Source: Azoarcus sp. DD4 (lineage in GTDB: Bacteria > Pseudomonadota > Gammaproteobacteria > Burkholderiales > Rhodocyclaceae). From it: 24,000 bases of DNA. This document shows positions 9,564 through 22,675 of the stretch, piece by piece; position 1 is the first letter of the stretch, and each line of letters starts with the position of its first letter. The stretch covers positions 2,342,700 to 2,366,699 of the forward strand of contig NZ_CP022958.1 in assembly GCF_006496635.1 (NCBI RefSeq). The letters run 5' to 3'. The notes under the pieces were generated by a model. The model had not been told where the DNA came from. It did no database searches and saw only the letters and a list, made by a program, of their open reading frames with translations. A program made the translations under genes and the position numbers.

Positions 9564-9659
9564 TATCGCGGGCAAGACATTGGTGGCGTGCGGAAGGCAT
9601 TCGACGGCTGCAGGGAGGCCAGTATGTTTGCATCTGAGTCAAAGGAGAGAGGAGTAAAG

Positions 9660-11087: not shown

Positions 11088-11238
11088 ACGGGGAGGGGTA
11101 TTCGACCCAGGATAGTTGCGTCTGTAGCGGACTGGAACGGTGAATCAAACGACACAGAGTCATTCGCCTGCGCATCGAGCGTGGGTCGATTGAAGAGCGA
11201 AGCCACACAGGTTTCACCCAGGAACAGGAGGAAGGATT

Positions 11239-12039
11239 ATGGGTATCATGCAAGCGGAAGTGGACCAGCCGGCCCGTCAGGTCGATGGGGGAGCGAGCCG
11301 GCCCTCGGCCCGGGCGGATTTTTCGACGGGTGCTATCGCGCCGATTCGCACAACCGCCCTTGGCGTTATCGGCATCCTCGTGCTGATGATCGCGTACAGA
11401 ATCTACCAGCAGGTCTTCGCCTGGTCTGCGGGGCTGGATTCCACGGACCCCGCGTTCGACACCTATTGGATGGGTTTGCTGCAGTGGCAGCTCCCAGCCA
11501 TTGTTGCGAGTTGGGCGGGCTTGTGGTCGTACCTTTTCGTGACGCGTGACCGACACCTCGACAAGCTGGAGCCACGCGAGGAGCTGAAGCGCTATTTCAG
11601 ACTGATCGGTTTCATCTTCCTTTACGCCTTCGCGGTCTATTGGGCGGCGAGCTTCTTTGCAGAGCAGGATGCGGCCTGGCATCAGACGGTGGTGCGCGAT
11701 ACGAGTTTTACACCGAGTCACATCGTGCTCTTCTATGGGACGATGCCGTTCTACGTGCTCTTCGGTGTCGGTTCGCTCCTGTATGCGATGACCCGGCTGC
11801 CGAGATTTGCTGAGCAGCTCTCGATTCCCTTCGTGCTGGCGGTCGCGGGCCCCTTCATGATCCTCCCGAATCTCGGATACAACGAGTGGGGTCACGCTTT
11901 CTGGATGATGGAGGAGTTCTTCTCGGCGCCGTTGCACTGGGGTTTCGTGGTCCTCGGGTGGAGCGTGCTTGCTCTCGGCGGCCTGCTCGTTCAGATCGTC
12001 CAGCATATGACGGAGCTCTTCCGCCGCTGCGACGCATGA
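11239..12039 (+). CDS. amoC: copper membrane monooxygenase subunit C (AmoC/PmoC family), 266 aa
   Basis: FFAEQDAAWHQTVVRDTSFTPSHIVLFYG, LYAMTRLP, GPFMILPNLGYNEWGHAFWMMEEFFSAPLHWGFVVLGWS. Both ligand triads are present: D144-x3-H148-x12-H161 and N215-x3-H219-x13-H233. AGGAGGA precedes the ATG. Confidence 0.96.
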   Translation: MGIMQAEVDQPARQVDGGASRPSARADFSTGAIAPIRTTALGVIGILVLMIAYRIYQQVFAWSAGLDSTDPAFDTYWMGLLQWQLPAIVASWAGLWSYLFVTRDRHLDKLEPREELKRYFRLIGFIFLYAFAVYWAASFFAEQDAAWHQTVVRDTSFTPSHIVLFYGTMPFYVLFGVGSLLYAMTRLPRFAEQLSIPFVLAVAGPFMILPNLGYNEWGHAFWMMEEFFSAPLHWGFVVLGWSVLALGGLLVQIVQHMTELFRRCDA

Positions 12040-12110
12040 GTAAACCCACGGCGGCGGCACCCCTCGTCGGTGGGATGTCGCCACCCGTTTTCGAATAGGT
12101 AACTTCCAAA

Positions 12111-12935
12111 ATGACAAACATTGCTGCATCGGAACAAGTGCGGATCTACGGAGTAACATGGTCGAAATGGTCAGCGGCGCTTTCGAGAAGATTTGACATC
12201 ATGGTTGCGGTGATTCTTTTCCTCGCGATCACTTCCGCCTTTCACCTCCATTTCATGCTGCTCGCCGGCGACTGGGATTTCTGGACCGATTGGAAGGACC
12301 GGCAGTACTGGGTGACGCTGACGCCGATCGTGGCGATCACATTTCCAGCGGCGCTGCACTATGTGTTTTGGGAGAAGTTCAGGCTCCCCTTTGGGGCAAC
12401 CTTTGCGATCGTGTGCCTCATCTTCGGCGAATGGATGAACCGATACTTCGGCTTCCATGTGTGGTCGTACTTCCCGTTCAGCGAGATCTGGCCCGCCACG
12501 ATGATTCCGGGCGCCATCGTCTTGGACGTCGTGTTGCTGCTCACGGGCAATTTCTTCCTTACGGCGGTGATCGGCGGAATAGGATTCGCATTGCTGTTCT
12601 ATCCGGCAAACTGGCCAATGCTCGCGGCCTACCACCTGCCGATGGAAGTCATGAACTCGGTGGTTTCGGTGGCCGACTACATCGGCTACACGTTCACACG
12701 GACCGCCACGCCCGAGTATCTCAGATTCATCGAACGCGGAACCCTGCGTACTTTCGGTGGCCACTCGGCTTGGGTCGCTTCGTTCTTCGCTGGATTCGTG
12801 TGCATGCTTATGTATTTCGCTTGGTGGTATCTGGGCATGCTCCTTACCAAGGTCGTCACCGTCCCGAACAAGTTCAAGCAGTTAATGGGGCTGAAGAAGG
12901 ATCCTCGGCCGTCGAGTGAGCAACTCGCCGTCTGA
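12111..12935 (+). CDS. amoA: copper membrane monooxygenase subunit A (AmoA/PmoA family), 274 aa
   Basis: HFMLLAGDWDFWTDWKDRQYWVTLTPIV, FGATFAIVCLIFGEWMNRYFGF, MIPGAIVLDVVLLLTGN, RTATPEYLRFIERGTLRTFGGHS and WWYLG are hallmark AmoA/PmoA blocks. The SD is weak, so the exact start is slightly uncertain. Confidence 0.96.
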   Translation: MTNIAASEQVRIYGVTWSKWSAALSRRFDIMVAVILFLAITSAFHLHFMLLAGDWDFWTDWKDRQYWVTLTPIVAITFPAALHYVFWEKFRLPFGATFAIVCLIFGEWMNRYFGFHVWSYFPFSEIWPATMIPGAIVLDVVLLLTGNFFLTAVIGGIGFALLFYPANWPMLAAYHLPMEVMNSVVSVADYIGYTFTRTATPEYLRFIERGTLRTFGGHSAWVASFFAGFVCMLMYFAWWYLGMLLTKVVTVPNKFKQLMGLKKDPRPSSEQLAV

Positions 12936-12982
12936 GACCCCGAACAGAACCAAGGGATACACGAATCAAAGGACGAATTTTC

Positions 12983-14239
12983 ATGATTTCGACATTCGGA
13001 AAATGTGTAGTACGGTTGACTTACGCAGTATGGTTCGGAGTACTGCTGTCGCTGTGCGGAAACGCGCTTGCACATGGAGAGCGCAACCAGGAACCCTTCT
13101 TGCGCATGCGCACGGCCCATTTCTATGACTTGCACTGGAGCACGACCAAGACGGAGGTGAATGGCGACATCGTCGTCACTGGCAAGTTCCGTCTGTTCAG
13201 CGACTGGCCAAAGAACCTGCCGGCTCCGGAGCGCTCGTTCCTCGGTAACGGCACGCCGGGTCCGGTTCTCGCACGCACGGAAAGCTGGATTAACGGCGAG
13301 CCGGCGATTCAGTCCGGCCGGCTCGAACTCGACCGCGACTACGAGTTCAAAACCGTGCTCAAGGGGCGCATCCCAGGCAAGCACCACGTGCACCCGATGA
13401 TCAACGTCGAAGGGGCGGGTCCGCTGCTCGGTCCCGGCAGTTGGCTGGAGGTAACGGGTAACGCCGCCGACTTCAAGTTGCCGGCGACGACAATCGACGG
13501 TACTCAAATCGAGAATCTCGAGACGTGGGGCATGGGGACCGTGAAGACCGTCCACATCGGCTGGTACATCGCCGCCCTGGTATTCATGCTGTGGTGGCTG
13601 CGCAAGCCGTTGCTGATGCCGCGTGCGGTTGCTCTGCAAGCCGGTAACGAGGAGGAGCTGGTTACCCGCGGGGACCGTCTCTGGGGTGCGGCTTTCGGCA
13701 TCGCGACCGTGGTCGTCGTGATTTGGGGCGCGAACTGGGCCGAGGCGACCTACCCCCGGACGATCCCGCTCCAAGGAGGCGAGTTCAACGTCGAGCCACT
13801 GCCGATGGACAACCGTACCGTCAGCGTCCGTGTCAGGCGTGCGACGTACGACGTCCCCGGACGTTCCATGAAGCTGAAGCTCGAGCTCACCAACGACGGC
13901 GACAAGCCCGTGTCAATCGGCGAATTCGCAACCGCGGGCCTGCGGTTCATCAACAAATCGGTTCCCGCCGCGGTCGCTGCGATCGATCCGACTTTCCCGA
14001 TGGATCTGGTGCCGCCCAGCGGACTGCAGGTGGCAGACAGCAGGCCGCTCGCACCGGGTGAGACGCGGCTGATCGAGATGGAAGCGACCGATGCAGCTTG
14101 GGAAGCCGAGCGGCTGACCAGCCTGCTGAACGACCCGGACAACCGGGTCGGCGGCCTGCTGTTCCTCTACGACGCTGACGGCGAACGTGTGATCGCCAAT
14201 GTGTCGGGTCCGATCGTGCCAGTGTTCACCAAGTCCTGA
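12983..14239 (+). CDS. amoB: copper membrane monooxygenase subunit B (AmoB/PmoB family), 418 aa
   Basis: The signal peptide ends ...GNALA, and the mature protein starts HGERNQEPFLRMRTAHFYDL. Other blocks are GRIPGKHHVHPMINV, two internal TM helices, ATYDVPGRSMKL, GEFATAGLRFIN and the C-terminal GPIVPVFTKS. The CuB-type ligands H31, H135 and H137 are present. Confidence 0.96.
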   Translation: MISTFGKCVVRLTYAVWFGVLLSLCGNALAHGERNQEPFLRMRTAHFYDLHWSTTKTEVNGDIVVTGKFRLFSDWPKNLPAPERSFLGNGTPGPVLARTESWINGEPAIQSGRLELDRDYEFKTVLKGRIPGKHHVHPMINVEGAGPLLGPGSWLEVTGNAADFKLPATTIDGTQIENLETWGMGTVKTVHIGWYIAALVFMLWWLRKPLLMPRAVALQAGNEEELVTRGDRLWGAAFGIATVVVVIWGANWAEATYPRTIPLQGGEFNVEPLPMDNRTVSVRVRRATYDVPGRSMKLKLELTNDGDKPVSIGEFATAGLRFINKSVPAAVAAIDPTFPMDLVPPSGLQVADSRPLAPGETRLIEMEATDAAWEAERLTSLLNDPDNRVGGLLFLYDADGERVIANVSGPIVPVFTKS

Positions 14240-14262
14240 GCTCCGGGCTCGGATCGTGATGC

Positions 14263-14288
14263 GCGCGGGACCATTCTCGGTCCCGCGC
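14263..14288 (+). terminator. perfect 10-bp GC-rich stem-loop (GCGCGGGACC-attctc-GGTCCCGCGC) just after amoB; possible attenuator or mRNA-stabilising hairpin, no U-tract
   Basis: Read directly from the sequence, 24 nt after the amoB stop and 3 nt before the SD (GGAGAG) of the next ORF. The missing T-run argues against a strong intrinsic terminator. Confidence 0.35.
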
Positions 14289-14301
14289 CACGGAGAGCTT
14301 C

Positions 14302-14916
14302 ATGCATTGTTGGTTTAGATCCAGGCTATTTGCGTTGTTGGCCGTTGGCTTGTGGGGGGGGATCGTCCCCCTTCAGGTCCAGGCTCATGGTGGGCTCAGC
14401 CTGGAGGAAGATAAGTGCAGGCTGACCATCGGCCCGTATTCGATGCACTTCACCGGTTACCAGCCCGAGGCGACCGGGACCAAGGAGTTTTGCGAGGATA
14501 TTCCCGAGACGGGTCACACCGTCGTGGCACTGGACGCCATCGACGAGCAGTTGAGACACCTGCCAATCGAGGTGCGGATCATTCGTGATACCGGTGACGA
14601 GAGCAACATCGACGCTGTGACCGTACTGCATCTGAAGCCCAAAACGTATCCTACGGGGAGCCTCTCCCTTGAGCACGATTTTCCGCAGCCGGGCAGGTTC
14701 GTCGGATTGGTTACCGCGGTTGGGGACAAGGAGACCTACGTCTCCCGGTTTCCCTTCAGTGTCGCCAGCACGTCGGCGGCACTGGCGAAGTACGTCCCGA
14801 TGGTTGGCGTCGTCTTGGCGGGCATCCTGCTCTACCTGTACTCCGGCCAGCGGCGCGGCAGGGAAGCGAGAAAGACGCGCGGTGTAGGCCCGAAGGCAGG
14901 CGGTTCGACCTCGTGA
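14302..14916 (+). CDS. exported single-pass membrane protein in the position, and with the architecture, of PmoD/AmoD/AmoE (signal peptide, about 130-aa periplasmic domain, C-terminal TM helix), 204 aa
   Basis: The signal peptide ends ...LQVQA, and the mature N-terminus is HGG. The Cys/Met/His cluster C39-RLTIGPYS-M48-H49 is followed by FC64EDIPETGH72. The C-terminal TM is YVPMVGVVLAGILLYLY, followed by a basic tail. SD GGAGAG precedes the ATG. The family assignment rests on position and architecture, not on an alignment. Confidence 0.55.
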   Translation: MHCWFRSRLFALLAVGLWGGIVPLQVQAHGGLSLEEDKCRLTIGPYSMHFTGYQPEATGTKEFCEDIPETGHTVVALDAIDEQLRHLPIEVRIIRDTGDESNIDAVTVLHLKPKTYPTGSLSLEHDFPQPGRFVGLVTAVGDKETYVSRFPFSVASTSAALAKYVPMVGVVLAGILLYLYSGQRRGREARKTRGVGPKAGGSTS

Positions 14917-15863
14917 AACGACAATCGAAGCGACTGAATTCGGGAGTCGCGGGGCTGTCGATCGATGGGGCATTCAAGCGAAAGTTCGCCTGGTCGCTCT
15001 GTTCTGTGCTGATTGTCATCGGACTCGGAGCGTGCTCGGGGGCATCAGATGCCGAGATTGCCGCGACACAGCGGGCCTTTGATTATTCGAAGAGCGAGCG
15101 GGAGGCTATCTGTGCGCCGGGCGACAAGTCCGGGGAGATGTTCAAGAACAATGAGAAATCGGCGGACGGAATCCGCTACAACATTCGAGCGCCGGCGAAT
15201 TACGATCCGACGGTCGGACATCCGCTACTGGTCGTGTATGCCGCAGGCGGCTCGAGCGCGGAAAGAACCGAGGCGCTGACGGGCTTCACGCCGGTGGCGA
15301 CAAAGAGGGGATACATCGTGGTTTATCCGGACCACCGTCCCATGTCGGTCGCCACGATTCACCGACTGGCGAGGATTCCAAGCGAAGTCGCGGACCATTG
15401 GTGTGTCGACCGAACGAAGATCTATGCAAGCGGGCACTCTGACGGCGGCACTGTGGCGACCGCGGTTGCGCTATTGGCCGAAACGAAAGGGACGTTGGCT
15501 GCGATCGCCCCCAGTGCCGCGGGCTTTTCCGCAGCAGATCTAGATGGCTTCGAGTGCCCTTCGCCCACGCCGGTAATGGTGATGCATGGCAGCGGGGACT
15601 TGGTCTTTCCCGGCTGGGGAGCGGCGGCTGCCAAGTGGTGGGGTAAGTGTAACCGATGTGACATATCCGTTGGAGCCGAGGAGGTGGGTAGCGGATGCGT
15701 TGAATTCAAGGGCTGCGCGGCGGGCGGCCAGACTCGGTTTTGCAGTTGGGAAGGATCCCATAGACAGTGGCCTGGAATGGAAGGGGAGGTGGTCAATTTT
15801 TTCGATGCTCGTTGGGGCGCCGCGATGAGTTCTTCTGCTCCGGTTCCGGCGCTTGTGAAGTAG
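14913..15863 (+). CDS. lipoprotein alpha/beta-hydrolase, PHB-depolymerase/LpqC-type esterase family, 316 aa
   Basis: The GTG start overlaps the upstream stop (GTGA at 14913-14916). Lipobox is VIGLGAC-SG. Family layout: IRYNIRAPANYDPTVGHPLLVVYAAGG, RGYIVVYPDH, nucleophile elbow YASGHSDGG, PVMVMHGSGDLVFP and a Cys-rich C-terminal part (WWGKCNRC). Confidence 0.75.
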   Translation: MKRQSKRLNSGVAGLSIDGAFKRKFAWSLCSVLIVIGLGACSGASDAEIAATQRAFDYSKSEREAICAPGDKSGEMFKNNEKSADGIRYNIRAPANYDPTVGHPLLVVYAAGGSSAERTEALTGFTPVATKRGYIVVYPDHRPMSVATIHRLARIPSEVADHWCVDRTKIYASGHSDGGTVATAVALLAETKGTLAAIAPSAAGFSAADLDGFECPSPTPVMVMHGSGDLVFPGWGAAAAKWWGKCNRCDISVGAEEVGSGCVEFKGCAAGGQTRFCSWEGSHRQWPGMEGEVVNFFDARWGAAMSSSAPVPALVK

Positions 15864-15881
15864 GTCCAGGACCGGCGTTTG

Positions 15882-15921
15882 GGGGAGGATGCACTACAGA
15901 CAGTCGTCTTCCCCTTTTTTT
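15882..15921 (+). terminator. candidate rho-independent terminator after the esterase gene (GGGGAGGA ... TCTTCCCC followed by T7)
   Basis: An 8-bp stem (one G-U pair), a long 17-nt loop, then TTTTTTT at 15915-15921, 19 nt after the stop. The large loop lowers confidence. Confidence 0.4.
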
Positions 15922-15945
15922 CTTTAACCAGCAAAGGGAAACATC

Positions 15946-16269
15946 ATGAGTGGAGCGAAGCTGATTGTGATCTATCCGATGCCGACGGATGTTGCGGCGT
16001 TCGAAGAGGTGTATCGCGACGAACACGTGCCGATGGCGATGGAAAAGCTCAAGGGAGCAACCAAGATCGTAGCCTCGAGAGTAGTCGGGGCGCCTGACGG
16101 AAACCCGGCCTTTCACAGAATTGCGGAGGTGCATTTCCCTTCTATGGTCGCGTTGGGAGAGTGTGCGGCCTCCGAAGGGGGGCAGCAGACCATCGACCAC
16201 GCGAGGCGGATCTCGTCCGGTGGCGCTCCCCTCTTCCTGGTCGCGGAGGAAGCAACGGTCGTTCTTTGA
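15946..16269 (+). CDS. EthD-family protein (TIGR02118-like small dimeric alpha/beta-barrel protein), 107 aa
   Basis: AKLIVIYPMPTDVAAFEEVYRDEHVPMAMEKLKGATKIVASRVVGAPDGNPAFHRIAEVHFPSMVALGECAASEGGQ... follows the EthD/TIGR02118 pattern as I remember it (K.v.lY..P.D...Fd.yY...H.pl......g.......y.....l.F.s.eal...l.s.eg). Confidence 0.8.
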   Translation: MSGAKLIVIYPMPTDVAAFEEVYRDEHVPMAMEKLKGATKIVASRVVGAPDGNPAFHRIAEVHFPSMVALGECAASEGGQQTIDHARRISSGGAPLFLVAEEATVVL

Positions 16270-16456
16270 GGGGGGCGCGGGGGGCCGCTGTGCTGTGTGC
16301 GTGCCGTTCCCGTGTGGCTACCGGTACGCACTCGTGGCATCGGGTTGGGGCCCCACGTTATTGCTGAGAGGCGGCGGCGTTCGGCCTGGAAGGCGCCGCG
16401 CCGTAGAGACGGCCCTGGAATTTTTCACGTTCCGGGGGCATGAGGAGGACGAAAAG

Positions 16457-16861
16457 ATGCCGAAGCTGGCTGGGTGGATCGCTCGCAGGGGAATCGCGTT
16501 CGGTTTGGCCGTGTTCTGTGCGGGGATGCTGCCGCTCGACGCCAGCGCCCACGCCCGCCTGGTGAAAGCGGAGCCGGCGCGGCGGGCGGAGCTGTCGGAA
16601 GCGCCGGGCATGATCAGAGTGTGGTTCAACGAGGAACTCGAGGCCGCATATGCCAAGCTCGTGGTCGAAGAGGCGTCAGGGCGGGCGGTGACCGAGTCGA
16701 AGCCGCAATTGGCCCCCGACGACGCGAAGTCCCTGATCCTTCCGTTGCCCGCTCTTGGGCCGGGAAAGTACCGCGTGAGATTTCGGGTTCTTTCAGTGGA
16801 CGGCCACGTCGTCGAGTCCGCTTATGACTTCACTGTGAAAGGGGGAGTTTCGACTCGATGA
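16457..16861 (+). CDS. copC: periplasmic copper-binding protein CopC (Cu(II)-site-only type), 134 aa
   Basis: ORF 16121..16861 trimmed to the ATG at 16457, which follows GAGGAGGA. The signal peptide ends ...LDASA, and the mature protein starts HARLVKAEPARRAELSEAPGMIRVWFNEELE. GKYRVRFRVLSVDGHVVES provides the D-x-H motif. There is no Met-rich Cu(I) loop. The stop overlaps the copD start (ATGA). Confidence 0.9.
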   Translation: MPKLAGWIARRGIAFGLAVFCAGMLPLDASAHARLVKAEPARRAELSEAPGMIRVWFNEELEAAYAKLVVEEASGRAVTESKPQLAPDDAKSLILPLPALGPGKYRVRFRVLSVDGHVVESAYDFTVKGGVSTR

Positions 16862-18876
16862 TTGAAGTGGTCGGTGCCGTCGCCCACTGGATACAGCTGG
16901 CAGCCAACATGGTGCTGGTTGGCAGCAGCTTCTTCCTCGGTTTCATAGGATATGACAACGAGAGGTGCACGAATCCTTGGCTGGGGCGGCTTGAGCGCGT
17001 TCTTCCGTGTCTCGGGGCTGTGGTCCTGCTTGGTCTGATCGGTGTCGTCTCGACCTCCACGGCGCGCATCACGGCCGACGTGACAGCCGCCTGGCAGCCG
17101 GACGCCTGGATCGGTGTGATGCGCGATACCCGGGTGGGGCAGGTGTGGGCAATCAGAGGGGGGCTGGCGCTGGTGGTGATGGTGGCCGCGGTTTATGTCC
17201 GGCGGGCACGGGCAAGGTCATGGAATTACTTCGCTTGTGGAGGATTGGCGGGCGTCGCGCTAGCTTTCAGTTCGTTCGCGGGCCATGCCGCAGCCGATGA
17301 CTCACCGTGGTTGACGATCCCCCCTCACACACTGCACCTCCTTGCGGCGAGTCTCTGGTTCGGTAGCTTGCCGGCGTTTCTCGCGTCTGCGTCGGGGGGC
17401 GCCGGTGCCGCGGAGGCGGAGAAGTGCTTTTCCATTCGCGCGCTCAACCGCTTTTCCATGGTCGCGTTGCCGATCATGATCGTCGTCGTCGTCAGCGGCA
17501 TTGTCGTTGCCTACTATCAGGTCGCGCCCGCCTTCGGAGGGCTGGTAGCGACGAGGTACGGATGGCTTCTCCATGGAAAGCTCGCCTTGCTGATCGCTAT
17601 TCTCGCCATTGCAGCGCGAGCTCGATTTCGATGGCTACCTGGGCTCTCCGGCAATTGCGAAATCGAGGAGGCGCAATGTGCGCGACGCCTGCGCACCTGG
17701 GTAGGCGTTGAAGTCGGGTGCGCGACCCTTCTGCTACTTGTCGCGAGCGTGCTGGCGGCCACGGTGCCGGCCAAGCACGAGGGCATCGACGCATGGCCGT
17801 ATCCTTTTCGTTTCTCCATCGCCGCCACCTGGGACGAGCCGGGTACGCGGACCCTCGTGCTCGTCGGCGGCGCGTTGCTGATCGCCGGTGGAGTGGCTGC
17901 GCTGGTCGGGCGGCGCCAGCGGTGGAGGCGTTCAGCCGTTGTCGGCGCCGCCGTCGCCTTCGTACTGCCCGGGACAGCATTGCCGCTCTACGCGATCGCA
18001 ACCCCGGCCAGCGAGTATACCTACCGGCCCAGCACGGTTCCTTTCGACGCCATCTCGATTTCGCGGGGCAGCGCGCTGTTCGAAGCCAATTGTGAGCAAT
18101 GTCATGGCCCCCAAGGCATGGGGAATGGGCCACTGGCGAAATCGCTGCGCAAGCCGCCAATCGATCTTCTTACCGAACCGCATACCGCCAGGCACACTGC
18201 CGGAGATTTCTTCAACTGGATCACCACCGGCTTTCCCGACAGCGGAATGCCGGCATTCGGCGATCGGTTTTCGGAGGACGATCGGTGGGACCTGGTGAAT
18301 TTCATCCACGCGCTGTCGCGCGGCTACCAGAGCCGCCCCCTAGGTGCCGCCGTCATTCCGGACAAGCCTGCAGCGACGCTCGGCGCTCCCGATTTTTCGT
18401 TCGTGAGCTACAAGGGCGAACAAGGAACGCTGAAGGATCACCGCGAGCGCGAGGCTGTCCTGCTGGTGTTTTTCTCCTGGCCGGAATCCAAGGACCGGCT
18501 GGACCAATTGGCCGCCACATACCGGTCGATCCGGGCACGAAGTGCTCAAGTCATCGCTGTTCCGTGGAAGGGCGCGGCCTCTGCCGTTGATCAATTGGCC
18601 GGTTATCCATACCCGATTGTGGCCGATGGCGCGCGGGGAATCGGGCGAACCTACGAGGCGTTCAGGCGAACTCTATCGGACCCGGACCTGTTCGGCAGGG
18701 GCAAGCGACCCGGTCATATGGAACTTCTCGTCGACCGCTTCGGTTACCTGCGTGCGCGCTGGATTCCGGATCAAGACGTTCGAGGTTGGAGAGACGGAGC
18801 GATGCTGGCTGAACAACTGGAACGCTTGCGCGCGGAAAGACAGATCCTGCCGCCGGCGGAGGAACACGTCCACTAG
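16858..18876 (+). CDS. copD: CopD-family inner-membrane copper transporter fused to a mono-haem c-type cytochrome domain and a C-terminal Cys-less thioredoxin/AhpC-TSA-fold domain, 672 aa
   Basis: The N-terminal 300 aa or so are polytopic and CopD-like, and translationally coupled to copC. Further TM helices follow. Then comes FEANCEQCHGPQGMGNGPLA (CxxCH, aa 412-416, nt 18091-18105) with downstream SGMPAFG and DRWDLVNFIHAL, typical of class I cytochrome c. The last 170 aa or so resemble redoxins (FSFVSYKGEQGTLKDHREREAVLLVFFSWPESKD...VIAV...YPIVAD...YEAF) but contain no cysteine. Confidence 0.85.
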   Translation: MIEVVGAVAHWIQLAANMVLVGSSFFLGFIGYDNERCTNPWLGRLERVLPCLGAVVLLGLIGVVSTSTARITADVTAAWQPDAWIGVMRDTRVGQVWAIRGGLALVVMVAAVYVRRARARSWNYFACGGLAGVALAFSSFAGHAAADDSPWLTIPPHTLHLLAASLWFGSLPAFLASASGGAGAAEAEKCFSIRALNRFSMVALPIMIVVVVSGIVVAYYQVAPAFGGLVATRYGWLLHGKLALLIAILAIAARARFRWLPGLSGNCEIEEAQCARRLRTWVGVEVGCATLLLLVASVLAATVPAKHEGIDAWPYPFRFSIAATWDEPGTRTLVLVGGALLIAGGVAALVGRRQRWRRSAVVGAAVAFVLPGTALPLYAIATPASEYTYRPSTVPFDAISISRGSALFEANCEQCHGPQGMGNGPLAKSLRKPPIDLLTEPHTARHTAGDFFNWITTGFPDSGMPAFGDRFSEDDRWDLVNFIHALSRGYQSRPLGAAVIPDKPAATLGAPDFSFVSYKGEQGTLKDHREREAVLLVFFSWPESKDRLDQLAATYRSIRARSAQVIAVPWKGAASAVDQLAGYPYPIVADGARGIGRTYEAFRRTLSDPDLFGRGKRPGHMELLVDRFGYLRARWIPDQDVRGWRDGAMLAEQLERLRAERQILPPAEEHVH

Positions 18877-18955
18877 GACACTTGGACGCAACCTGAGGAG
18901 CTCAAGCCTCTGCTCTGTAAACAGAGGCTACCTATCAAATGGGAGGATGGTAATC

Positions 18956-19429
18956 ATGAAGAGACTTTCCCTTGTCGCACTGCTTGCAGCGGTGCTTGCC
19001 GCATCCGTACCGGCGGCTGCGCATACCGATGAGTATCTAGAGGCGGTGAAGGCGCCTCACGGCGGGCGGTTGCGGATGTCGGGCCCATATCACCTTGAAC
19101 TGGTGGTTAAGGACCGCGACATCCTCGTGTATGTCACGGATCATGGCGACAAGGAGATCGCTACGGCGGGAGGTGAGGGCAAGGTCGTCTTGCAGCGTGG
19201 ATCGAGCAGGGTGTCCGTGCGGCTGGAGCCGTCAGGAGGCAACGTCCTGAGAGGGAAGAGCGAATCTGGGATTACTCCGAGCACGAGCGCGGTTGTCTTT
19301 GTGAAGCTGCCTGGGCAGGACGCCTACTCGGCGCGCTATCCTGCACCAAAGCCTGTAGATCCCCAGCCGGCCGCGCATCGCGGAGGGGCTGCCAGCCAGC
19401 ACGACGGGCATCACATGATGCATCACTAG
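18956..19429 (+). CDS. small secreted His/Met-rich protein, putative periplasmic metal (copper) binding, 157 aa
   Basis: ORF 18542..19429 trimmed to the ATG at 18956, which follows GGGAGGA. The signal peptide MKRLSLVALLAAVLAASVPAAA is followed by the mature N-terminus HTDEY. Other features are HGGRLRMSGPYHLELVVKDRDILVYVTDHGDKE and the C-terminus QHDGHHMMHH. I cannot name a family. Confidence 0.7.
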   Translation: MKRLSLVALLAAVLAASVPAAAHTDEYLEAVKAPHGGRLRMSGPYHLELVVKDRDILVYVTDHGDKEIATAGGEGKVVLQRGSSRVSVRLEPSGGNVLRGKSESGITPSTSAVVFVKLPGQDAYSARYPAPKPVDPQPAAHRGGAASQHDGHHMMHH

Positions 19430-19751
19430 GCACACGGCTGTCTCTTCGGAGACGCGGGGCGCTTGGATGGCCACTCTTCCCGCGGACGTCGTCGTCGCGT
19501 ATTGAGGAATACCGTTCGCCGTCGCCCCGGCGGCGGGCGGTTTCGCGATCCAGGTTGGGGCTCAAGTGGCGCCCAAAATGAACGTAGTCGTCTCGGTTTT
19601 CCCTTGGTCGATGACGCAGCGAAAAGGCTAAAGCGTACATGCAGCGGATTGTGGCGCTGCCCGACAATTTGCGGTCGTACTTCAGCCATGAGGCGGTCCG
19701 CCAGGCGCAGTAGAGAATCTTTTTGGCTGGCTGATTTTAGTTGAACCCGAC

Positions 19752-20216
19752 GTGATCCGAATCAAGTTCCTCCGCAGGCTCACCGCCTGGATTGCCAGCT
19801 ACGCGATCCTGCTGGGCGCGCTCGCACCGGCCGTGACCCAAACCTTGGCGTGGTTGGAACGCGGGAGTGCAGACAAAGCCACATCGTTGGAGGTTTCGGC
19901 GGCCGCCGACATCCTCACGTCCGTGGGGGCAGAGGAGGACGGCCATGAGGCCTGCGAGTCCCACGAAGGCCACGCGGGTCACCAGGACCAGGGCCTCGAG
20001 GGTCATGAAGGGGGCGGTCACGAGGCCGCGGGCAGCGGGCATTGTCCCTTCTGCGGCACCCACGCCGGTTCCTTTGGCCTGCCGCCCACCGAACGGCCTG
20101 CGGCGGCGCAGCCCGCCGGGACGCATGCTTTCCGTCCCCATCTCTACGATCACGCCCCGCGTCCGCTCTTCGCCTGGGCGGCCGCCCATCCTCGCGCACC
20201 GCCTGTCCGCGCCTGA
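19752..20216 (+). CDS. DUF2946-like protein (N-terminal TM/signal anchor, His/Glu-rich linker, HCPFC motif), 154 aa
   Basis: GTG start. MIRIKFLRRLTAWIASYAILLGALAPAVTQTLAW, then EEDGHEACESHEGHAGHQDQGLEGHEGGGHEAAGSGHCPFCGTHAGSFGLPP. The architecture, the CPxC motif and the position just upstream of a TonB-dependent receptor are typical of DUF2946 as I recall it. Confidence 0.65.
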   Translation: MIRIKFLRRLTAWIASYAILLGALAPAVTQTLAWLERGSADKATSLEVSAAADILTSVGAEEDGHEACESHEGHAGHQDQGLEGHEGGGHEAAGSGHCPFCGTHAGSFGLPPTERPAAAQPAGTHAFRPHLYDHAPRPLFAWAAAHPRAPPVRA

Positions 20217-20392
20217 TCCCGATCGATGAGCCGGTATTCCCCTGCACGGTGGTCCGGCTCAATTTCAACCCGATCCGTTAGCCCCGACTGTTCCGTTGAA
20301 TCGTCGCCGTCCCGATGAGGCCGGCGGCTGCCGCGCGCTGCCAGCGCCGGCCGGGATCGGGGCTCCGGGATGTCTCGTCGTGGACCCGAAAT

Positions 20393-22675
20393 ATGAAGCT
20401 CAACTGCAAACCCCTCGTGCTCGCGGTCCTGGGGGCCCTTTCCTCCGGGGCGCTCGCGGAGCAGACGTCAAATAAGGATGGCGATACCGCCATTCAACTC
20501 GACGAAGTCGTGATTACCGGCGGCGCGCCGTCGCCCCTGCCGCCCACGGTGCAGGCAGTGGTCGAGGGGGTGACGGCCGAGACCATGGCCGAGTCGATCA
20601 ACGTGGTGAACACCGAGGACGCGCTCAAGTACCTGCCCAGCCTGCAGATCCGCAAGCGCTTCATCGGCGACACCAACGGTATCGTGGCCTCCCGTTCGTC
20701 GGGCACGCTCGCCAGCGCGCGCGCCCTCGTCTATGCCGACGGCCTGCTGCTCTCGAACCTGCTCGGCAACTCCTTTGCCTATCCGCCGCGCTGGGGCCTG
20801 GTGACCGCCGAGGAGATCGCCCGCATCGACGTCCTCTATGGGCCGTTTTCCGCGCTTTATCCGGGCAATTCGATGGGTGCGCTGATCCACATGACGACGC
20901 GGATGCCCGACAAGCTGGAGGCGCACGTCAAGGCGCAAGCCTTTACGCAGGACTTCCGTCTCTACGGCACCGACGAGTCCTTCTCCGGCCATCAGCTGGC
21001 CGCCGCGTTGGGTAGCCGCAGCGGGGCGTGGTCGTGGTGGTTCAACGCCAGCCGCTTGGACAGCGAGGGCCAGCCGATGGGCTTCGTCACCAGGCCCGCC
21101 TCGTCCACGCCGGCCGAGGCCGGCGACACTGTGGCGACGGGGGCGCGGCATGACCGCGATCCGCGCGGCAGCAAGCGCGTGGTGCTGGGCGCCACGGGCA
21201 TGGCGCATACCGTGCAGGATCATGCCAAGCTGAAGCTCGCCTACGACTTCTCCCCGGCGGTGCGCGCCACCTACACCGTCGGCCTGTGGCAGAACGACGC
21301 CGACAACGGCGTCGCCTCCTACCTGCGAGATGGGGCCGGGCGGGCGGTCTACAGCGGCACGGTGAATGTTGACGGCCGGCGTTATACGCTCGCCGCAACC
21401 GACTTCAGCCCTAGCCGCGCCGAGGCCGAGCACTGGATGCATGGTCTCGCGCTGAAGACGAGCACCGGCGGCGAGTGGGACGGCGAGGCGGTGGTTAGCG
21501 TGTACGACTACGGCAAGGATCTGCTGCGCTCCCCGGGCGCTGCGCTGCCGGCCGCCGGACGGGGCGGCAGCGGCCAGATCGCCGACCTCGAGGGCACCGG
21601 CTGGACCGCCGTCGACCTGCGGGGCGTCTGGCGTGCGGCCGGCGCCCACGAGCTCTCCTTCGGCTACCACGGCGACCACTACAAGCTGCGCACCCTCGTT
21701 TCCAATACCTCCGACTGGATCGACGGCGGCGCCCGAAGCCGCAAGTCGGCCTTCACCGGGGACACCGAGACCACCGCCCTTTACCTGCAGGAGGTGTGGC
21801 GCTTCGCGCCCGCCTGGAGCGCCACCCTGGGTGGCCGCTGGGAGCGCTGGGAGGCGCACGACGGCTCGATCTCGAACGCGACCACGACGCTGCGCTTCGG
21901 CGAGCGCGAGGAACACTTCTTCTCGCCCAAGCTGGCGCTTGCTTACCGCCCGGCGCCGGAATGGATGCTGCGCGCCGCCCTCGCTCGCGCCTACCGCATG
22001 CCTACCGTGGCGGAGCTCTACCAGGGCTCGATCAGCGCCAACACCATCGTGCGGAACGATCCCGGCCTCAAGCCGGAGAAGGCTCTCGCCGCCGAGCTCA
22101 CCGCCGAGCGCGACCTCGGCAACGGCCTCGTGCGCCTCTCCCTGTTCGAGGAGGACGCCGAGGACGCGCTGTTTTCCCAGACCGACGTCACCGTCACGCC
22201 TAACGTCACCAACATCCAGAACATCGACAAGATCCGCACCCGCGGCGTCGAACTCGCGTACCAGGGGGTGGATGTTGGGCTGCGCGGACTGGATCTCGCT
22301 GCGAGCCTGACCTACGCCGACTCGGAGATCCTCGCCAACCGCCGCAACCCGGCGAGCGTCGGCAAGAAGCAGCCGCGCGTGCCCGACTGGCGGGCGGTGC
22401 TGTCGGCCACCTATCGCCAGAGCGAGCGCCTCGCCTACGCCCTCGGCGTCCGCTACAGCGGCCGTCAGTACGGCGAACTCGACAACGGCGACGTCAATGG
22501 CGACACTTACGGCGGCGTGGGGCGCTTCTTCGTCGTCGATGCGCGCGTCAGCTACAAGCTCGCCCGCCAGTGGACCGCGGCGCTCGGCGTCGACAACCTC
22601 AACGATCAGAAGCACTTCGTGTACCACCCCTATCCGCAGCGCACCTGGGTGGCCGAGCTGAAGGCCGATTTCTGA
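20393..22675 (+). CDS. TonB-dependent outer-membrane receptor (possibly a copper/chalkophore-type transporter), about 760 aa
   Basis: ORF 20315..22675 trimmed to MKLNCKPLVLAVLGALSSGALA-EQ. TonB-box-like IQLDEVVITG. Plug-domain blocks NTEDALKYLPSLQIR, GIVASRSSG and ARIDVLYGPFSALYPGNSMGALIHMTT. A long beta-barrel ends ...TWVAELKADF (terminal Phe). The antisense ORF 20468..22735 is an artefact. Confidence 0.9.
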   Translation: MKLNCKPLVLAVLGALSSGALAEQTSNKDGDTAIQLDEVVITGGAPSPLPPTVQAVVEGVTAETMAESINVVNTEDALKYLPSLQIRKRFIGDTNGIVASRSSGTLASARALVYADGLLLSNLLGNSFAYPPRWGLVTAEEIARIDVLYGPFSALYPGNSMGALIHMTTRMPDKLEAHVKAQAFTQDFRLYGTDESFSGHQLAAALGSRSGAWSWWFNASRLDSEGQPMGFVTRPASSTPAEAGDTVATGARHDRDPRGSKRVVLGATGMAHTVQDHAKLKLAYDFSPAVRATYTVGLWQNDADNGVASYLRDGAGRAVYSGTVNVDGRRYTLAATDFSPSRAEAEHWMHGLALKTSTGGEWDGEAVVSVYDYGKDLLRSPGAALPAAGRGGSGQIADLEGTGWTAVDLRGVWRAAGAHELSFGYHGDHYKLRTLVSNTSDWIDGGARSRKSAFTGDTETTALYLQEVWRFAPAWSATLGGRWERWEAHDGSISNATTTLRFGEREEHFFSPKLALAYRPAPEWMLRAALARAYRMPTVAELYQGSISANTIVRNDPGLKPEKALAAELTAERDLGNGLVRLSLFEEDAEDALFSQTDVTVTPNVTNIQNIDKIRTRGVELAYQGVDVGLRGLDLAASLTYADSEILANRRNPASVGKKQPRVPDWRAVLSATYRQSERLAYALGVRYSGRQYGELDNGDVNGDTYGGVGRFFVVDARVSYKLARQWTAALGVDNLNDQKHFVYHPYPQRTWVAELKADF

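What the first reader, a model, noticed from the sequence alone, without database searches (positions are those of the whole stretch)
16858..18876. Three-part fusion: CopD transporter plus c-type cytochrome plus cysteine-free thioredoxin-fold domain
Seen: one 672-aa ORF, start-overlapped with copC (ATGA), contains three parts. The first is a CopD-like polytopic region. The second is a CEQCH haem-binding motif with a downstream Met (SGMPAF) in a class I cytochrome c-like segment. The third is an AhpC/TSA-like tail of about 170 aa in which the usual redox Cys position reads FFSWPESKD; the whole tail has no Cys. Established: CopC binds Cu(II) through its N-terminal His, and CopCD pairs are implicated in copper import. 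They neighbour CuMMO operons in nitrifiers and methanotrophs. Inference: a covalently attached haem domain could reduce CopC-delivered Cu(II) to Cu(I) at the transporter mouth. The degenerate redoxin fold might then serve as a docking or metal-binding module rather than an oxidoreductase.
Basis: partly seen in the sequence, partly recalled or inferred. Interest (0 to 1): 0.7.

Follow-up and report, generated by a model that had tools for sequence, protein, structure and literature searches.

The report
Long CopD with haem and thioredoxin-like domains
This gene encodes a real, widely conserved copper-transporter protein that carries a haem domain and a cysteine-free thioredoxin-like domain on its periplasmic end; it is the Azoarcus version of the "CopD" found beside ammonia-monooxygenase genes in nitrifiers, its architecture has already been noted in print, and its function remains untested.

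Summary
ORF 16858-18876 (672 aa) overlaps copC by ATGA. It contains a CopD membrane domain, one class I cytochrome c domain (CEQCH, Met464) and a thioredoxin-fold tail without cysteine.

It is not a frameshift artefact. More than 300 full-length homologues of about 640-700 aa share all three parts.

Hydropathy, charge bias and a natural CopC-CopD fusion place the last 288 residues in the periplasm.

The window is Azoarcus sp. DD4. The gene is the orthologue of the long "CopD" in amo/CuMMO clusters of Nitrosomonas (including N. europaea), Nitrosospira and comammox Nitrospira. In 79 of the 80 closest genome loci copC sits directly upstream. More distant members (NC10/Methylomirabilota, Rokubacteria and others) have no CuMMO nearby.

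A 2025 paper already states that about 4% of proteobacterial CopDs carry a cytochrome domain plus a Sco1/thioredoxin-like domain. The architecture is therefore known, but its function is not.

New details found here:
- Both His residues needed for import in E. coli YebZ are conserved.
- An invariant His620/Glu622 lies in the former redox pocket.
- The C-terminus is a near-universal His-x-His.
- His442 matches the copper-to-haem relay His of a solved cytochrome c552.

Redox-coupled copper hand-over is plausible but unproven.

The parts
16457..16861 (+). copC: periplasmic Cu(II)-binding partner. It has a signal peptide, a mature N-terminal His (ASA/HARLV), a DGH motif, and only one Met in the mature part.
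   Evidence: Pfam CopC E 5.3e-21. NCBIfam CopC 78 bits, below the equivalog cut-off of 95. A homologue lies directly upstream of the fusion gene in 79/80 loci.
16858..18876 (+). Whole 672-aa ORF: CopD, two extra TM helices, cytochrome c, thioredoxin-like tail. Its start overlaps the copC stop (ATGA).
   Evidence: 100% identical to NCBI protein CJ010_10980 of Azoarcus sp. DD4.
16858..17769 (+). CopD core, TM1-TM8 (aa 1-304). Invariant His143 and His160 lie at the periplasmic ends of TM4 and TM5.
   Evidence: NCBIfam CopD covers aa 8-304. BLASTP against E. coli YebZ aligns H143 with H135 and H160 with H154. 99-100% conserved in 310 sequences. Helices in the AF2 model.
17767..17850 (+). Family-specific periplasmic loop after TM8 (aa 304-331): PAKH307...W313-PYPFRFS. 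E. coli YebZ ends before this segment.
   Evidence: H307 99%, W313 100%, R318 97% conserved. YebZ alignment ends at P304.
17851..18009 (+). Two extra TM helices, TM9 and TM10 (aa 332-384), joined by the cytoplasmic RRQRWRR loop. They return the chain to the periplasm.
   Evidence: Hydropathy and K/R counts. AF2 helices 328-354 and 358-379.
18019..18324 (+). Monohaem class I cytochrome c domain (aa 388-489). CEQCH is at nt 18091-18105; the axial Met464 at 18247-18249; His442 and His446 sit in the TEPHTARHT segment.
   Evidence: Pfam. Best solved relative is cytochrome c552 7o9u/9vr0, E about 1e-14. C412/C415/H416/M464 are 100% conserved, H442 96%, H446 97%.
18370..18837 (+). Cys-free thioredoxin-fold domain (aa 505-660). 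FFSWPESKD (nt 18469-18495) sits at the CxxC/peroxidatic-Cys position. His620 (nt 18715-18717), Glu622, Asp626, Arg632 and Arg634 are in the GHMELLVDRFGYLRARW strand pair.
   Evidence: AF2 tail model pLDDT 88.7, pTM 0.87. Foldseek best matches are ResA/DsbE/Bcp/AhpE, E 7e-9, target-normalised TM 0.73-0.77. Conservation. Pfam AhpC-TSA 29.4 bits for the tail alone.
18838..18873 (+). Flexible C-terminal extension ERQILPPAEEHVH, ending in His670-Val-His672-COOH.
   Evidence: 303 of 310 full-length family members end in HxH. H670 98%, H672 99% conserved. Low pLDDT in both models.
11239..14239 (+). Context: CuMMO subunit genes C (11239-12039), A (12111-12935) and B (12983-14239).
   Evidence: Pfam AmoC, AMO and Monooxygenase_B. 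NCBIfam AmoB_BACT 529.9 bits.
14302..14916 (+). Context: 204-aa membrane-anchored protein at the AmoD/PmoD position.
   Evidence: A homologue lies upstream of copC in 68/80 loci. No Pfam or NCBIfam hit. Operon layout from PMC6189053.
18956..19429 (+). Context: 157-aa predicted periplasmic protein with a His/Met-rich C-terminus (HDGHHMMHH), directly downstream.
   Evidence: A homologue lies directly downstream of the fusion gene in 33/80 loci. No curated family.

Best explanation
Identity. This is the Azoarcus sp. DD4 orthologue of the long-form CopD encoded next to copC in the amo/CuMMO gene clusters of betaproteobacterial ammonia oxidisers and comammox Nitrospira. It is one polypeptide with 10 transmembrane helices and about 288 periplasmic residues. 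The periplasmic part is a monohaem class I cytochrome c followed by a thioredoxin-fold domain. That domain has lost its cysteines but keeps an invariant His/Glu pocket and ends in a flexible His-x-His tail.

Proposed mechanism: redox-coupled copper hand-over at the mouth of a CopD importer.
1. CopC brings tightly bound Cu(II).
2. The copper is received at a His-rich periplasmic site. This site is built from the thioredoxin-like pocket (His620/Glu622), the C-terminal His670/His672, and possibly His442 beside the haem.
3. The tethered haem passes one electron, giving Cu(I) and loosening CopC's grip.
4. The ion moves to His307 and the His143/His160 pair of the CopD core and is transported.

What is shown: the gene is real; the three domains and their conservation; the predicted periplasmic topology; conservation of the two YebZ-type import histidines; linkage to copC; and linkage to CuMMO in this clade.

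What is inferred: haem attachment, copper binding by the tail, the direction of electron flow, and the final destination of the copper.
For: - One gene, conserved as a unit. 780 hits were found; the best 120 are all about 673 aa with 100% coverage and the same three Pfam domains. All 76 full-length representatives of 50%-identity clusters align end to end.
- Import core intact. H143 and H160 align with YebZ H135 and H154. Mutation of those residues reduces or abolishes copper uptake in E. coli (PMC11923076). They are 99-100% conserved in the family.
- Periplasmic location. Ten hydrophobic segments are found. The K/R-rich loops RARARS, RFRW...RRLRT and QRWRRS fall on one side. P0012 carries a CopC domain fused to the N-terminus. 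The AF2 helices agree.
- Haem site. CxxCH and Met464 are 100% conserved; 309 of 310 members have exactly one CxxCH.
- Nearest solved cytochrome is T. paradoxus CytC552 (E 1e-14). It accepts electrons from a tricopper enzyme. Its His83 hydrogen-bonds a haem propionate and is the proposed copper-to-haem relay (PMC9456337). His83 aligns with His442 here (alignment).
- Tail. The thioredoxin-fold model is confident. H620 is 98%, E622/D626/R632 are 100% and H670/H672 are 98-99% conserved. A weak profile alignment puts P542 and K545 on the Sco CxxxC cysteines and H620 on the Sco copper-ligand His.
- Partner and context. copC lies directly upstream in 79/80 loci, with AmoD-like and CuMMO genes alongside. 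In other clades the neighbours include CopC, CusF, Sco1 and PCuAC.
Against: - No experiment bears on haem attachment, copper binding or reduction.
- Ordinary 8-TM CopDs such as YebZ import copper without any fused redox domain, and the oxidation state of the transported copper is unknown. A reductase step is therefore not obviously required.
- A copCD mutant of M. trichosporium OB3b, whose CopD has this architecture, was reported as not critical for copper uptake or the copper switch (review PMC7558416).
- The His442/His446 pair also occurs in a free-standing cytochrome, so it may serve haem chemistry rather than copper binding.
The spatial proximity of the haem, H620 and the tail to the channel mouth is therefore unverified.
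- The electron could flow in the opposite direction (Cu(I) oxidation).
Confidence: 0.45

Rival explanations
1. Periplasmic metallochaperone or insertase. The soluble half loads copper into periplasm-facing cuproenzymes: CuMMO here, other enzymes elsewhere. The haem sets the copper oxidation state, in the way Sco, TlpA and PCuAC serve cytochrome oxidase. The CopD part supplies or anchors the system; net import would not be its main role.
For: The gene sits inside CuMMO clusters with AmoD/PmoD-like copper proteins in the closest clade. Elsewhere, Sco1 and PCuAC genes are neighbours (L086). The fold is closest to ResA/DsbE-type maturation factors. There is a weak Sco-like alignment that keeps the His. 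The OB3b copCD mutant is not defective in bulk copper uptake.
Against: The import histidines of YebZ are strictly kept, which argues that transport is still the core function. Family members occur in genomes and loci with no CuMMO nearby, so any target would have to be generic. No interaction data exist.
Confidence: 0.25
2. Electron-transfer accessory. The tethered cytochrome passes electrons between the respiratory chain and CuMMO or another periplasmic copper protein. The copper-transport homology of the membrane part would then be secondary.
For: The physiological reductant of AMO/pMMO is unresolved (general knowledge). The gene is embedded in the CuMMO cluster. The nearest solved cytochrome is a redox partner of a copper enzyme.
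Against: The family is common where no CuMMO is nearby. Strict linkage to CopC (79/80 loci) and conserved CopD histidines point to copper handling. According to PMC6189053, gammaproteobacterial pmo/amo operons lack copCD, so the protein cannot be a universal CuMMO reductant.
Confidence: 0.1
3. Copper sensing or gating. The haem/thioredoxin-like module senses periplasmic redox state or copper and opens or closes the CopD channel, or protects it by oxidising stray Cu(I). It would not process the transported ion.
For: A conserved flexible HxH tail and a His/Glu pocket could act as a regulatory metal site. Canonical CopDs work without the module.
Against: There is no precedent in the material examined. 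Such strong conservation of haem ligands and pocket residues across phyla fits a catalytic or relay role at least as well.
Confidence: 0.1
4. Artefact or decay: two or three genes joined by a sequencing frameshift, or a degenerate peroxiredoxin remnant with no function.
For: The AhpC-TSA score on the full-length protein is marginally below the Pfam cut-off (25.8 against 26), and the catalytic Cys is absent.
Against: The protein is identical to the deposited complete-genome protein. More than 300 full-length homologues from several phyla have the same order and length. Tail residues are 98-100% conserved. The AF2 fold is confident.
Confidence: 0.01

Closest known systems
Long-form CopD (CopD, cytochrome c domain, Sco1/thioredoxin-like domain) of CuMMO-containing bacteria. 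Examples are the copD of the amoCAB-amoE-amoD-copCD clusters of Nitrosomonas/Nitrosospira and the M. trichosporium OB3b CopD; noted in PMC11923076.
   Same: Same three-part order and the same length (about 670 aa). 43-54% identity over the full length to Nitrosomonas (including N. europaea, L062), Nitrosospira and comammox Nitrospira proteins. The same copC partner and the same AmoD-like and CuMMO neighbours.
   Different: The host is a heterotrophic propanotroph, not a nitrifier or methanotroph. The cluster also carries FadL, esterase and EthD genes. The literature gives the architecture one sentence and no function.
E. coli YebZ / Pseudomonas CopD / PcoD (8-TM CopD copper importers) with CopC/YobA
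   Same: Homologous membrane core (26% identity to YebZ). Both functionally required histidines are conserved. A copC gene is adjacent.
   Different: This protein has an extra conserved periplasmic loop (H307, WPYPFRFS), two extra TM helices and a 288-aa periplasmic haem plus thioredoxin-like extension. It scores below the NCBIfam CopD equivalog cut-off (120 against 195 bits).
Thioalkalivibrio paradoxus cytochrome c552 (PDB 7o9u), electron acceptor of the tricopper thiocyanate dehydrogenase
   Same: It is the best solved relative of the haem domain (E 1.2e-14). It shares CxxCH, the axial Met, and the His83/His87 pair, which aligns with His442/His446.
   Different: It is a soluble stand-alone protein with His-rich disordered termini. 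It is not fused to a transporter or a thioredoxin fold.
ResA / CcmG / DsbE / TlpA extracytoplasmic thiol-disulfide oxidoreductases and Bcp/AhpE peroxiredoxins
   Same: Same fold (Foldseek E 7e-9, target-normalised TM about 0.75). Pfam AhpC-TSA and Redoxin matches. Periplasmic location.
   Different: No CxxC and no peroxidatic Cys: P542 and K545 occupy those positions, and 294 of 310 family members have no Cys at all in the domain. Thiol chemistry is therefore excluded. Only 17-20% identity.
Sco1/SenC copper chaperones (a thioredoxin fold binding copper through CxxxC plus His). From my own recollection, not checked here, Sco-cytochrome c fusions have been reported in Pseudomonas.
   Same: Thioredoxin fold used in periplasmic copper handling. 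A weak alignment keeps the His ligand position (H620). PMC11923076 describes the domain as Sco1-like.
   Different: Both Sco cysteines are absent. No tail matches Pfam SCO1-SenC even at E <= 1. The profile alignment to a Sco1 is weak (probability 4%, E 0.009).
Eukaryotic Fre/STEAP metalloreductase plus Ctr1 copper uptake (functional analogy only; from general knowledge)
   Same: The logic is the same: reduce Cu(II) to Cu(I) with haem at the membrane surface, directly before transport.
   Different: The proteins are unrelated. They use b-type haems fed from cytoplasmic NADPH, and the reductase and the transporter are separate polypeptides.

Membership tests
CopD family (PF05425 / NF033808) | Match to the family HMM above the curated threshold | tested here: met
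   Pfam CopD 76.4 bits against a cut-off of 32.1. The NCBIfam equivalog model aligns over aa 8-304 but scores 120 against a cut-off of 195. It is therefore a family member, not an equivalog of the canonical CopD.
CopD family (PF05425 / NF033808) | Two conserved periplasm-side histidines (YebZ H135 and H154) required for copper import | tested here: met
   BLASTP aligns H143 with H135 and H160 with H154. 99% and 100% conserved in 310 homologues. Their requirement is taken from PMC11923076.
CopD family (PF05425 / NF033808) | At least 8 transmembrane helices, with a copC gene adjacent | tested here: met
   10 predicted TM helices. copC overlaps the start codon and lies upstream in 79/80 related loci.
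CopD family (PF05425 / NF033808) | Copper transport activity | not testable with these tools
   Needs uptake assays in cells or proteoliposomes.
Class I c-type cytochrome | CxxCH haem-attachment motif with a distal Met ligand about 40-50 residues downstream, and a match to the family HMM | tested here: met
   C412-E-Q-C415-H416 and M464. Pfam Cytochrom_C 51 bits (cut-off 21.3) and Cytochrome_CBB3 48.4 bits (cut-off 27). 100% conservation.
Class I c-type cytochrome | Located on the periplasmic side, where haem is attached | tested here: met
   Prediction only: an even number of TM helices with the N-terminus outside, the positive-inside rule, and a natural CopC N-terminal fusion.
Class I c-type cytochrome | Covalently bound haem | not testable with these tools
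   Needs haem staining or mass spectrometry of the expressed protein.
Peroxiredoxin (AhpC/TSA, PF00578) | Match to the family HMM | tested here: inconclusive
   25.8 bits on the whole protein, just under the cut-off of 26. 29.4 bits when the tail is scanned alone. All 19 tails match.
Peroxiredoxin (AhpC/TSA, PF00578) | Peroxidatic cysteine in the active-site motif | tested here: not met
   No Cys after residue 415. The position reads SWPES. 294 of 310 homologues have no Cys in the domain. It is not a peroxiredoxin.
TlpA/ResA/CcmG thiol-disulfide oxidoreductases | Thioredoxin fold with extra N-terminal strands | tested here: met
   Foldseek best hits are ResA, DsbE and a Bacillus thiol-disulfide oxidoreductase; E 7e-9 to 5e-8, target-normalised TM 0.70-0.77.
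TlpA/ResA/CcmG thiol-disulfide oxidoreductases | CxxC redox motif | tested here: not met
   Absent here and in nearly the whole family.
Sco1/SenC | CxxxC plus His copper site; match to PF02630 | tested here: not met
   No Cys. No SCO1-SenC hit at E <= 1 for any of 19 tails. The hhalign match to a Sco1 is weak (probability 4%, E 0.009) although H620 lands on the Sco His.
CopD-cytochrome-Sco1/thioredoxin-like subgroup described in PMC11923076 | A CopD membrane domain followed by a cytochrome c (cbb3-type Pfam) domain and a thioredoxin/Sco1-like C-terminal domain | tested here: met
   The domain order is shown. The description in the paper is quoted. Whether the OB3b protein itself groups with this one was not tested directly.

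The most novel reading that the evidence does not exclude
The haem domain, the Cys-less thioredoxin pocket (His620/Glu622) and the C-terminal His-x-His together form a previously uncharacterised type of bacterial periplasmic cupric reductase or copper redox gate, built onto a CopD importer. It would strip Cu(II) from CopC by one-electron reduction and pass Cu(I) into the channel, or on to CuMMO. If so, it would be the dedicated copper-supply step for ammonia and hydrocarbon monooxygenases in all betaproteobacterial nitrifiers and comammox Nitrospira.
Probability: 0.3. Interest if true: 0.7.

Novelty: new member of a known kind. Interest (0 to 1): 0.4.

Why it matters
How copper reaches ammonia, methane and hydrocarbon monooxygenases is still unclear. 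This protein is encoded in the monooxygenase gene cluster of essentially all betaproteobacterial ammonia oxidisers and comammox Nitrospira examined here. Papers on those organisms that were read here simply call it "CopD" without mentioning the extra domains.

A defined set of conserved candidate ligands now makes a redox-coupled copper hand-over directly testable by mutagenesis. The set is His143/160/307 in the membrane part, His442/446 beside the haem, His620/Glu622 in the thioredoxin-like pocket and the terminal His-x-His. Azoarcus sp. DD4 is a fast-growing, cultivable heterotroph that would be a far easier host than a nitrifier.

The find itself is an orthologue in an already noted architecture, so its value is as a tractable model and not as a discovery of a new kind.

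Tried and rejected
- Frameshift or gene-fusion artefact: rejected. Full-length homologues are found in several phyla.
- Peroxiredoxin or thiol-oxidoreductase activity: rejected. There is no Cys in the tail, here or family-wide.
- Sco1 membership: rejected on the Cys motif and the HMM test, although the His position is suggestive.
- "Architecture tracks CuMMO" as a general rule: rejected. Six of six loci from deeper clades lack CuMMO within 8-10 kb.
- PDB sequence search: found nothing for the CopD core or the tail, only cytochromes.
- Model coordinates are not exposed to the scripting tool, so distances between the haem site, H620, the tail and the channel mouth could not be measured.
- Promoter and terminator scan of 15800-19800: nothing above shuffled expectation.
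- The hairpin just after the stop codon is no more stable than shuffles (z = -0.13).
- A tail-only word-index search returned mostly gene fragments from short contigs and no distant Cys-containing relatives.
- Lawton et al. 2016 (the CopC family paper) is not held in the library.
- A literature search for Sco-cytochrome c fusions found no relevant paper. That precedent rests on my own recollection only.


Full report
**1. The observation**

The window encodes, on the + strand, a 672-aa ORF at 16858-18876. Its ATG overlaps the TGA of the preceding gene in the sequence ATGA.

The preceding gene (16457-16861) is a CopC (Pfam E 5e-21).

Pfam finds three domains in the 672-aa protein:
- CopD at aa 194-299, E 2.5e-21.
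- Cytochrome c at aa 402-486, E 3.7e-13, with the cbb3-type model at E 1.2e-12.
- AhpC/TSA at aa 510-605, E 1.1e-5, 25.8 bits against a cut-off of 26.

Scanned alone, the 178-aa tail passes the cut-off (29.4 bits), and all 19 tail homologues tested match the same model. NCBIfam's CopD model aligns over aa 8-304.

CEQCH is at residues 412-416 and the SGMPAF methionine is Met464. The last cysteine in the protein is Cys415, so the tail is indeed Cys-free.

**2. Source and surroundings**

The protein is 100% identical to CJ010_10980 of Azoarcus sp. DD4. This organism is a propanotroph. Its genome note mentions one copper membrane monooxygenase (PMC6696649).

The window holds that cluster, in this order:
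- a FadL/TodX-type outer-membrane channel (9588-11087);
- CuMMO subunits C, A and B (11239-14239);
- a 204-aa membrane-anchored protein (14302-14916);
- an esterase;
- an EthD-family protein;
- copC;
- the long copD;
- a 157-aa His/Met-tailed protein (18956-19429);
- a DUF2946 protein;
- a TonB-dependent receptor.

**3. Not an artefact, and not rare**

A search of 5.8 billion proteins gave 780 hits. The best 120 are all about 673 aa, cover 100% of the query at 45-54% identity, and carry the same Pfam domains.

A profile of the tail alone was searched against 1.84 billion cluster representatives. It found 152 clusters at E <= 1e-30 and 442 at E <= 1e-10. The match is almost always at the C-terminus of 640-700-aa proteins. 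All 76 full-length representatives align with the window protein over CopD, cytochrome and tail.

In a joint alignment of 310 full-length members:
- 309 have exactly one CxxCH;
- 294 have no cysteine in the tail;
- 303 end in His-x-His.

The "frameshift" refutation condition is thus excluded, and the Cys-free state is a family trait.

**4. Topology**

Ten hydrophobic segments are present. The three short loops rich in Arg/Lys (116-121 RARARS, 256-280, 354-359 QRWRRS) all fall on one side. This places the N-terminus and the C-terminal 288 residues on the opposite, periplasmic side.

Three further points agree with this:
- One homologue (P0012) has a signal-peptide-bearing CopC domain fused directly to the N-terminus. 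That requires an outside N-terminus.
- The AlphaFold helices match the ten segments.
- His143 and His160 fall at the periplasmic ends of TM4 and TM5, the side assigned to the equivalent YebZ residues in the literature.

The "cytoplasmic CxxCH" refutation condition is therefore not met, as far as prediction can tell.

**5. The membrane part**

BLASTP against E. coli YebZ aligns H143 with H135 and H160 with H154. Replacing these two histidines lowers or abolishes copper import by YebZ (PMC11923076). They are 99-100% conserved in this family.

YebZ ends right after TM8. The long form continues with a strongly conserved periplasmic segment (H307 99%, W313 100%, WPYPFRFS). Two further TM helices then bring the chain back out.

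**6. The haem domain**

C412, C415, H416 and M464 are 100% conserved.

The nearest solved structures are cytochrome c552 entries 7o9u and 9vr0 (E about 1e-14). Entry 7o9u is the T. paradoxus cytochrome that accepts electrons from the tricopper thiocyanate dehydrogenase. Its His83 hydrogen-bonds a haem propionate and is the proposed relay from copper to haem (PMC9456337).

In the HMMER alignment, His83 and His87 align with His442 and His446 of the window protein. These are 96-97% conserved in the family. This is circumstantial support for haem-copper electron exchange. It also warns that these two histidines may serve the haem and may not bind copper.

**7. The tail**

Modelled with 41 aligned sequences, the tail gives a confident thioredoxin fold (pLDDT 88.7, pTM 0.87). 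Foldseek against the PDB puts ResA, DsbE-type oxidoreductases, Bcp and AhpE on top (E 7e-9 and up, target-normalised TM 0.66-0.77, 17-20% identity).

A weak profile alignment to a Sco1 puts P542 and K545 on the two Sco cysteines, and H620 on the Sco copper-ligand histidine (E 0.009, probability 4%). A TlpA-like redoxin aligns somewhat better (E 9e-5). No tail matches the Sco Pfam model.

Conservation in and around the former pocket is extreme: R547 99%, H620 98%, E622 100%, D626 100%, R632 100%, R634 99%.

After the last helix comes a proline-rich extension of low model confidence. It ends in H670-V-H672-COOH (98-99% conserved).

The domain is therefore under strong selection but cannot do thiol chemistry. 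A His/Glu pocket plus a mobile His-x-His terminus is what one would expect of a metal-receiving site. That reading is an inference.

**8. Distribution and linkage**

A scan of one genome per species found 346 genomes encoding a relative. The best 80 are Nitrosomonas (including N. europaea, L062), Nitrosospira, Nitrosovibrio and comammox-type Nitrospira. A few are Rhodocyclales, Alphaproteobacteria and Hyphomicrobium MAGs.

tblastn with the window's proteins gave these counts over the 80 loci:
- copC directly upstream in 79;
- a homologue of the 204-aa protein upstream in 68. This is the AmoD/PmoD position in the operon layout described in PMC6189053;
- CuMMO A, B or C genes in 24, 25 and 18 loci. 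Many contigs break there;
- the 157-aa protein directly downstream in 33.

Four MAG loci (L001, L002, L004, L025) share most of the DD4 layout, including the esterase, with CuMMO subunits 62-77% identical.

A second search seeded with divergent members found the same three-part protein in NC10/Methylomirabilota, Rokubacteria, Udaeobacter and Binatia. JGI's pipeline already names these [quoted passage not shown]. In six of six long contigs from these clades there is no CuMMO gene within 8-10 kb. CopC is adjacent in five. CusF, Sco1 and PCuAC appear in some.

The association with CuMMO therefore holds for the clade containing this gene, not for the architecture as a whole.

**9. What is known**

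PMC11923076 (2025) surveyed about 50,000 CopD sequences. [quoted passage not shown] No function was tested.

Papers on nitrifiers and comammox that were read here call the gene simply copD. A review reports that an OB3b copCD mutant is not critical for copper uptake or the copper switch. The oxidation state of the copper moved by YebZ is unresolved.

**10. Most likely mechanism**

The evidence fits a CopD importer with a built-in periplasmic redox and receiving module. The proposed steps are:
1. CopC delivers Cu(II). This CopC is of the Cu(II)-only kind by sequence: mature N-terminal His, a DGH motif, no Met-rich site.
2. The thioredoxin-like pocket and the His-x-His tail receive the copper.
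3. The tethered haem, possibly through His442, reduces it.
4. Cu(I) passes through His307 to the His143/His160 pair and is transported.

I put about 0.45 on this. A chaperone role towards periplasmic cuproenzymes, here CuMMO, is the main rival (about 0.25). Electron delivery to CuMMO and a sensing or gating role follow (about 0.1 each). All four would be distinguished by the experiments listed under next steps.

**11. Verdict**

However, the protein is an orthologue in a large family whose architecture has already been noted in print. The mechanistic proposal is reasonable but unproven.

The additions made here are the family-wide conserved ligand set, the terminal His-x-His, the link to a copper-partner cytochrome, the predicted topology, and the clade-limited CuMMO association.

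Interest is moderate. The family is understudied and sits at an open question, copper supply to AMO and pMMO-type enzymes. This instance is not itself a new kind of thing.

Noticed in passing
window 18956-19429 (+): A 157-aa predicted periplasmic protein. It has a signal peptide, the mature end probably begins with His (AAA/HTDEY), and the C-terminus is HDGHHMMHH. It matches no Pfam or NCBIfam family. A homologue sits directly downstream of the long copD in 33 of 80 related loci (beta-AOB and DD4-like MAGs). It is likely another copper-handling component of the cluster.
   Followed up: partly
window 14302-14916 (+): A 204-aa protein with a signal peptide, a C-terminal TM helix and a C39-x8-M-H motif, at the AmoD/PmoD position. 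Homologues (50-70% identity) lie upstream of copC in 68 of 80 loci. It has no curated family hit.
   Followed up: partly
window 9588-16269; loci L001, L002, L004, L025: The DD4 CuMMO cluster (FadL channel, C-A-B subunits, AmoD-like protein, esterase, EthD) has a beta-AOB-like operon order. Its B subunit passes the NCBIfam AmoB_BACT equivalog cut-off (529.9 against 336 bits), although the host is a heterotrophic propanotroph. Most of the layout recurs in Rhodocyclales, Alphaproteobacteria and Hyphomicrobium MAGs at 62-77% identity. This suggests a horizontally shared hydrocarbon-type CuMMO island.
   Followed up: partly
window 19752-22675 (+): A DUF2946 protein (19752-20216) followed by a TonB-dependent receptor (20315-22675) lies immediately downstream of the copper genes. 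This may be an outer-membrane uptake step for the same pathway.
   Followed up: no
window 6839-7882 (+): A DDE_3 transposase with HTH domains lies about 1.7 kb upstream of the FadL gene at the start of the CuMMO cluster. This is consistent with a mobile or acquired region.
   Followed up: no
loci L082 (14666-15070), L083 (6639-7055), L084 (9252-9629), L085 (7443-7895), L086 (6984-7196): A small rhodanese-domain gene lies next to or near copC and the long copD in five of six loci from clades that have no CuMMO nearby. The recurrence is unexplained.
   Followed up: no
protein P0012 (810 aa, metagenome): A natural four-part fusion (CopC, CopD, cytochrome c, thioredoxin-like) exists. It supports both the CopC partnership and the outside location of the N-terminus.
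   Followed up: partly
alignment A1, columns about 340-365 (window residues about 181-186): Nitrosospira-type members carry a 20-25-residue insertion in the predicted cytoplasmic loop between TM5 and TM6. The insertion is absent from DD4, Nitrosomonas and Nitrospira versions.
   Followed up: no
protein P0201 (666 aa representative): One family member has two cysteines around the former active site (VFCAQPQCEQRL, aligned to residues 539 and 544). It is a rare exception to the Cys-free rule.
   Followed up: no
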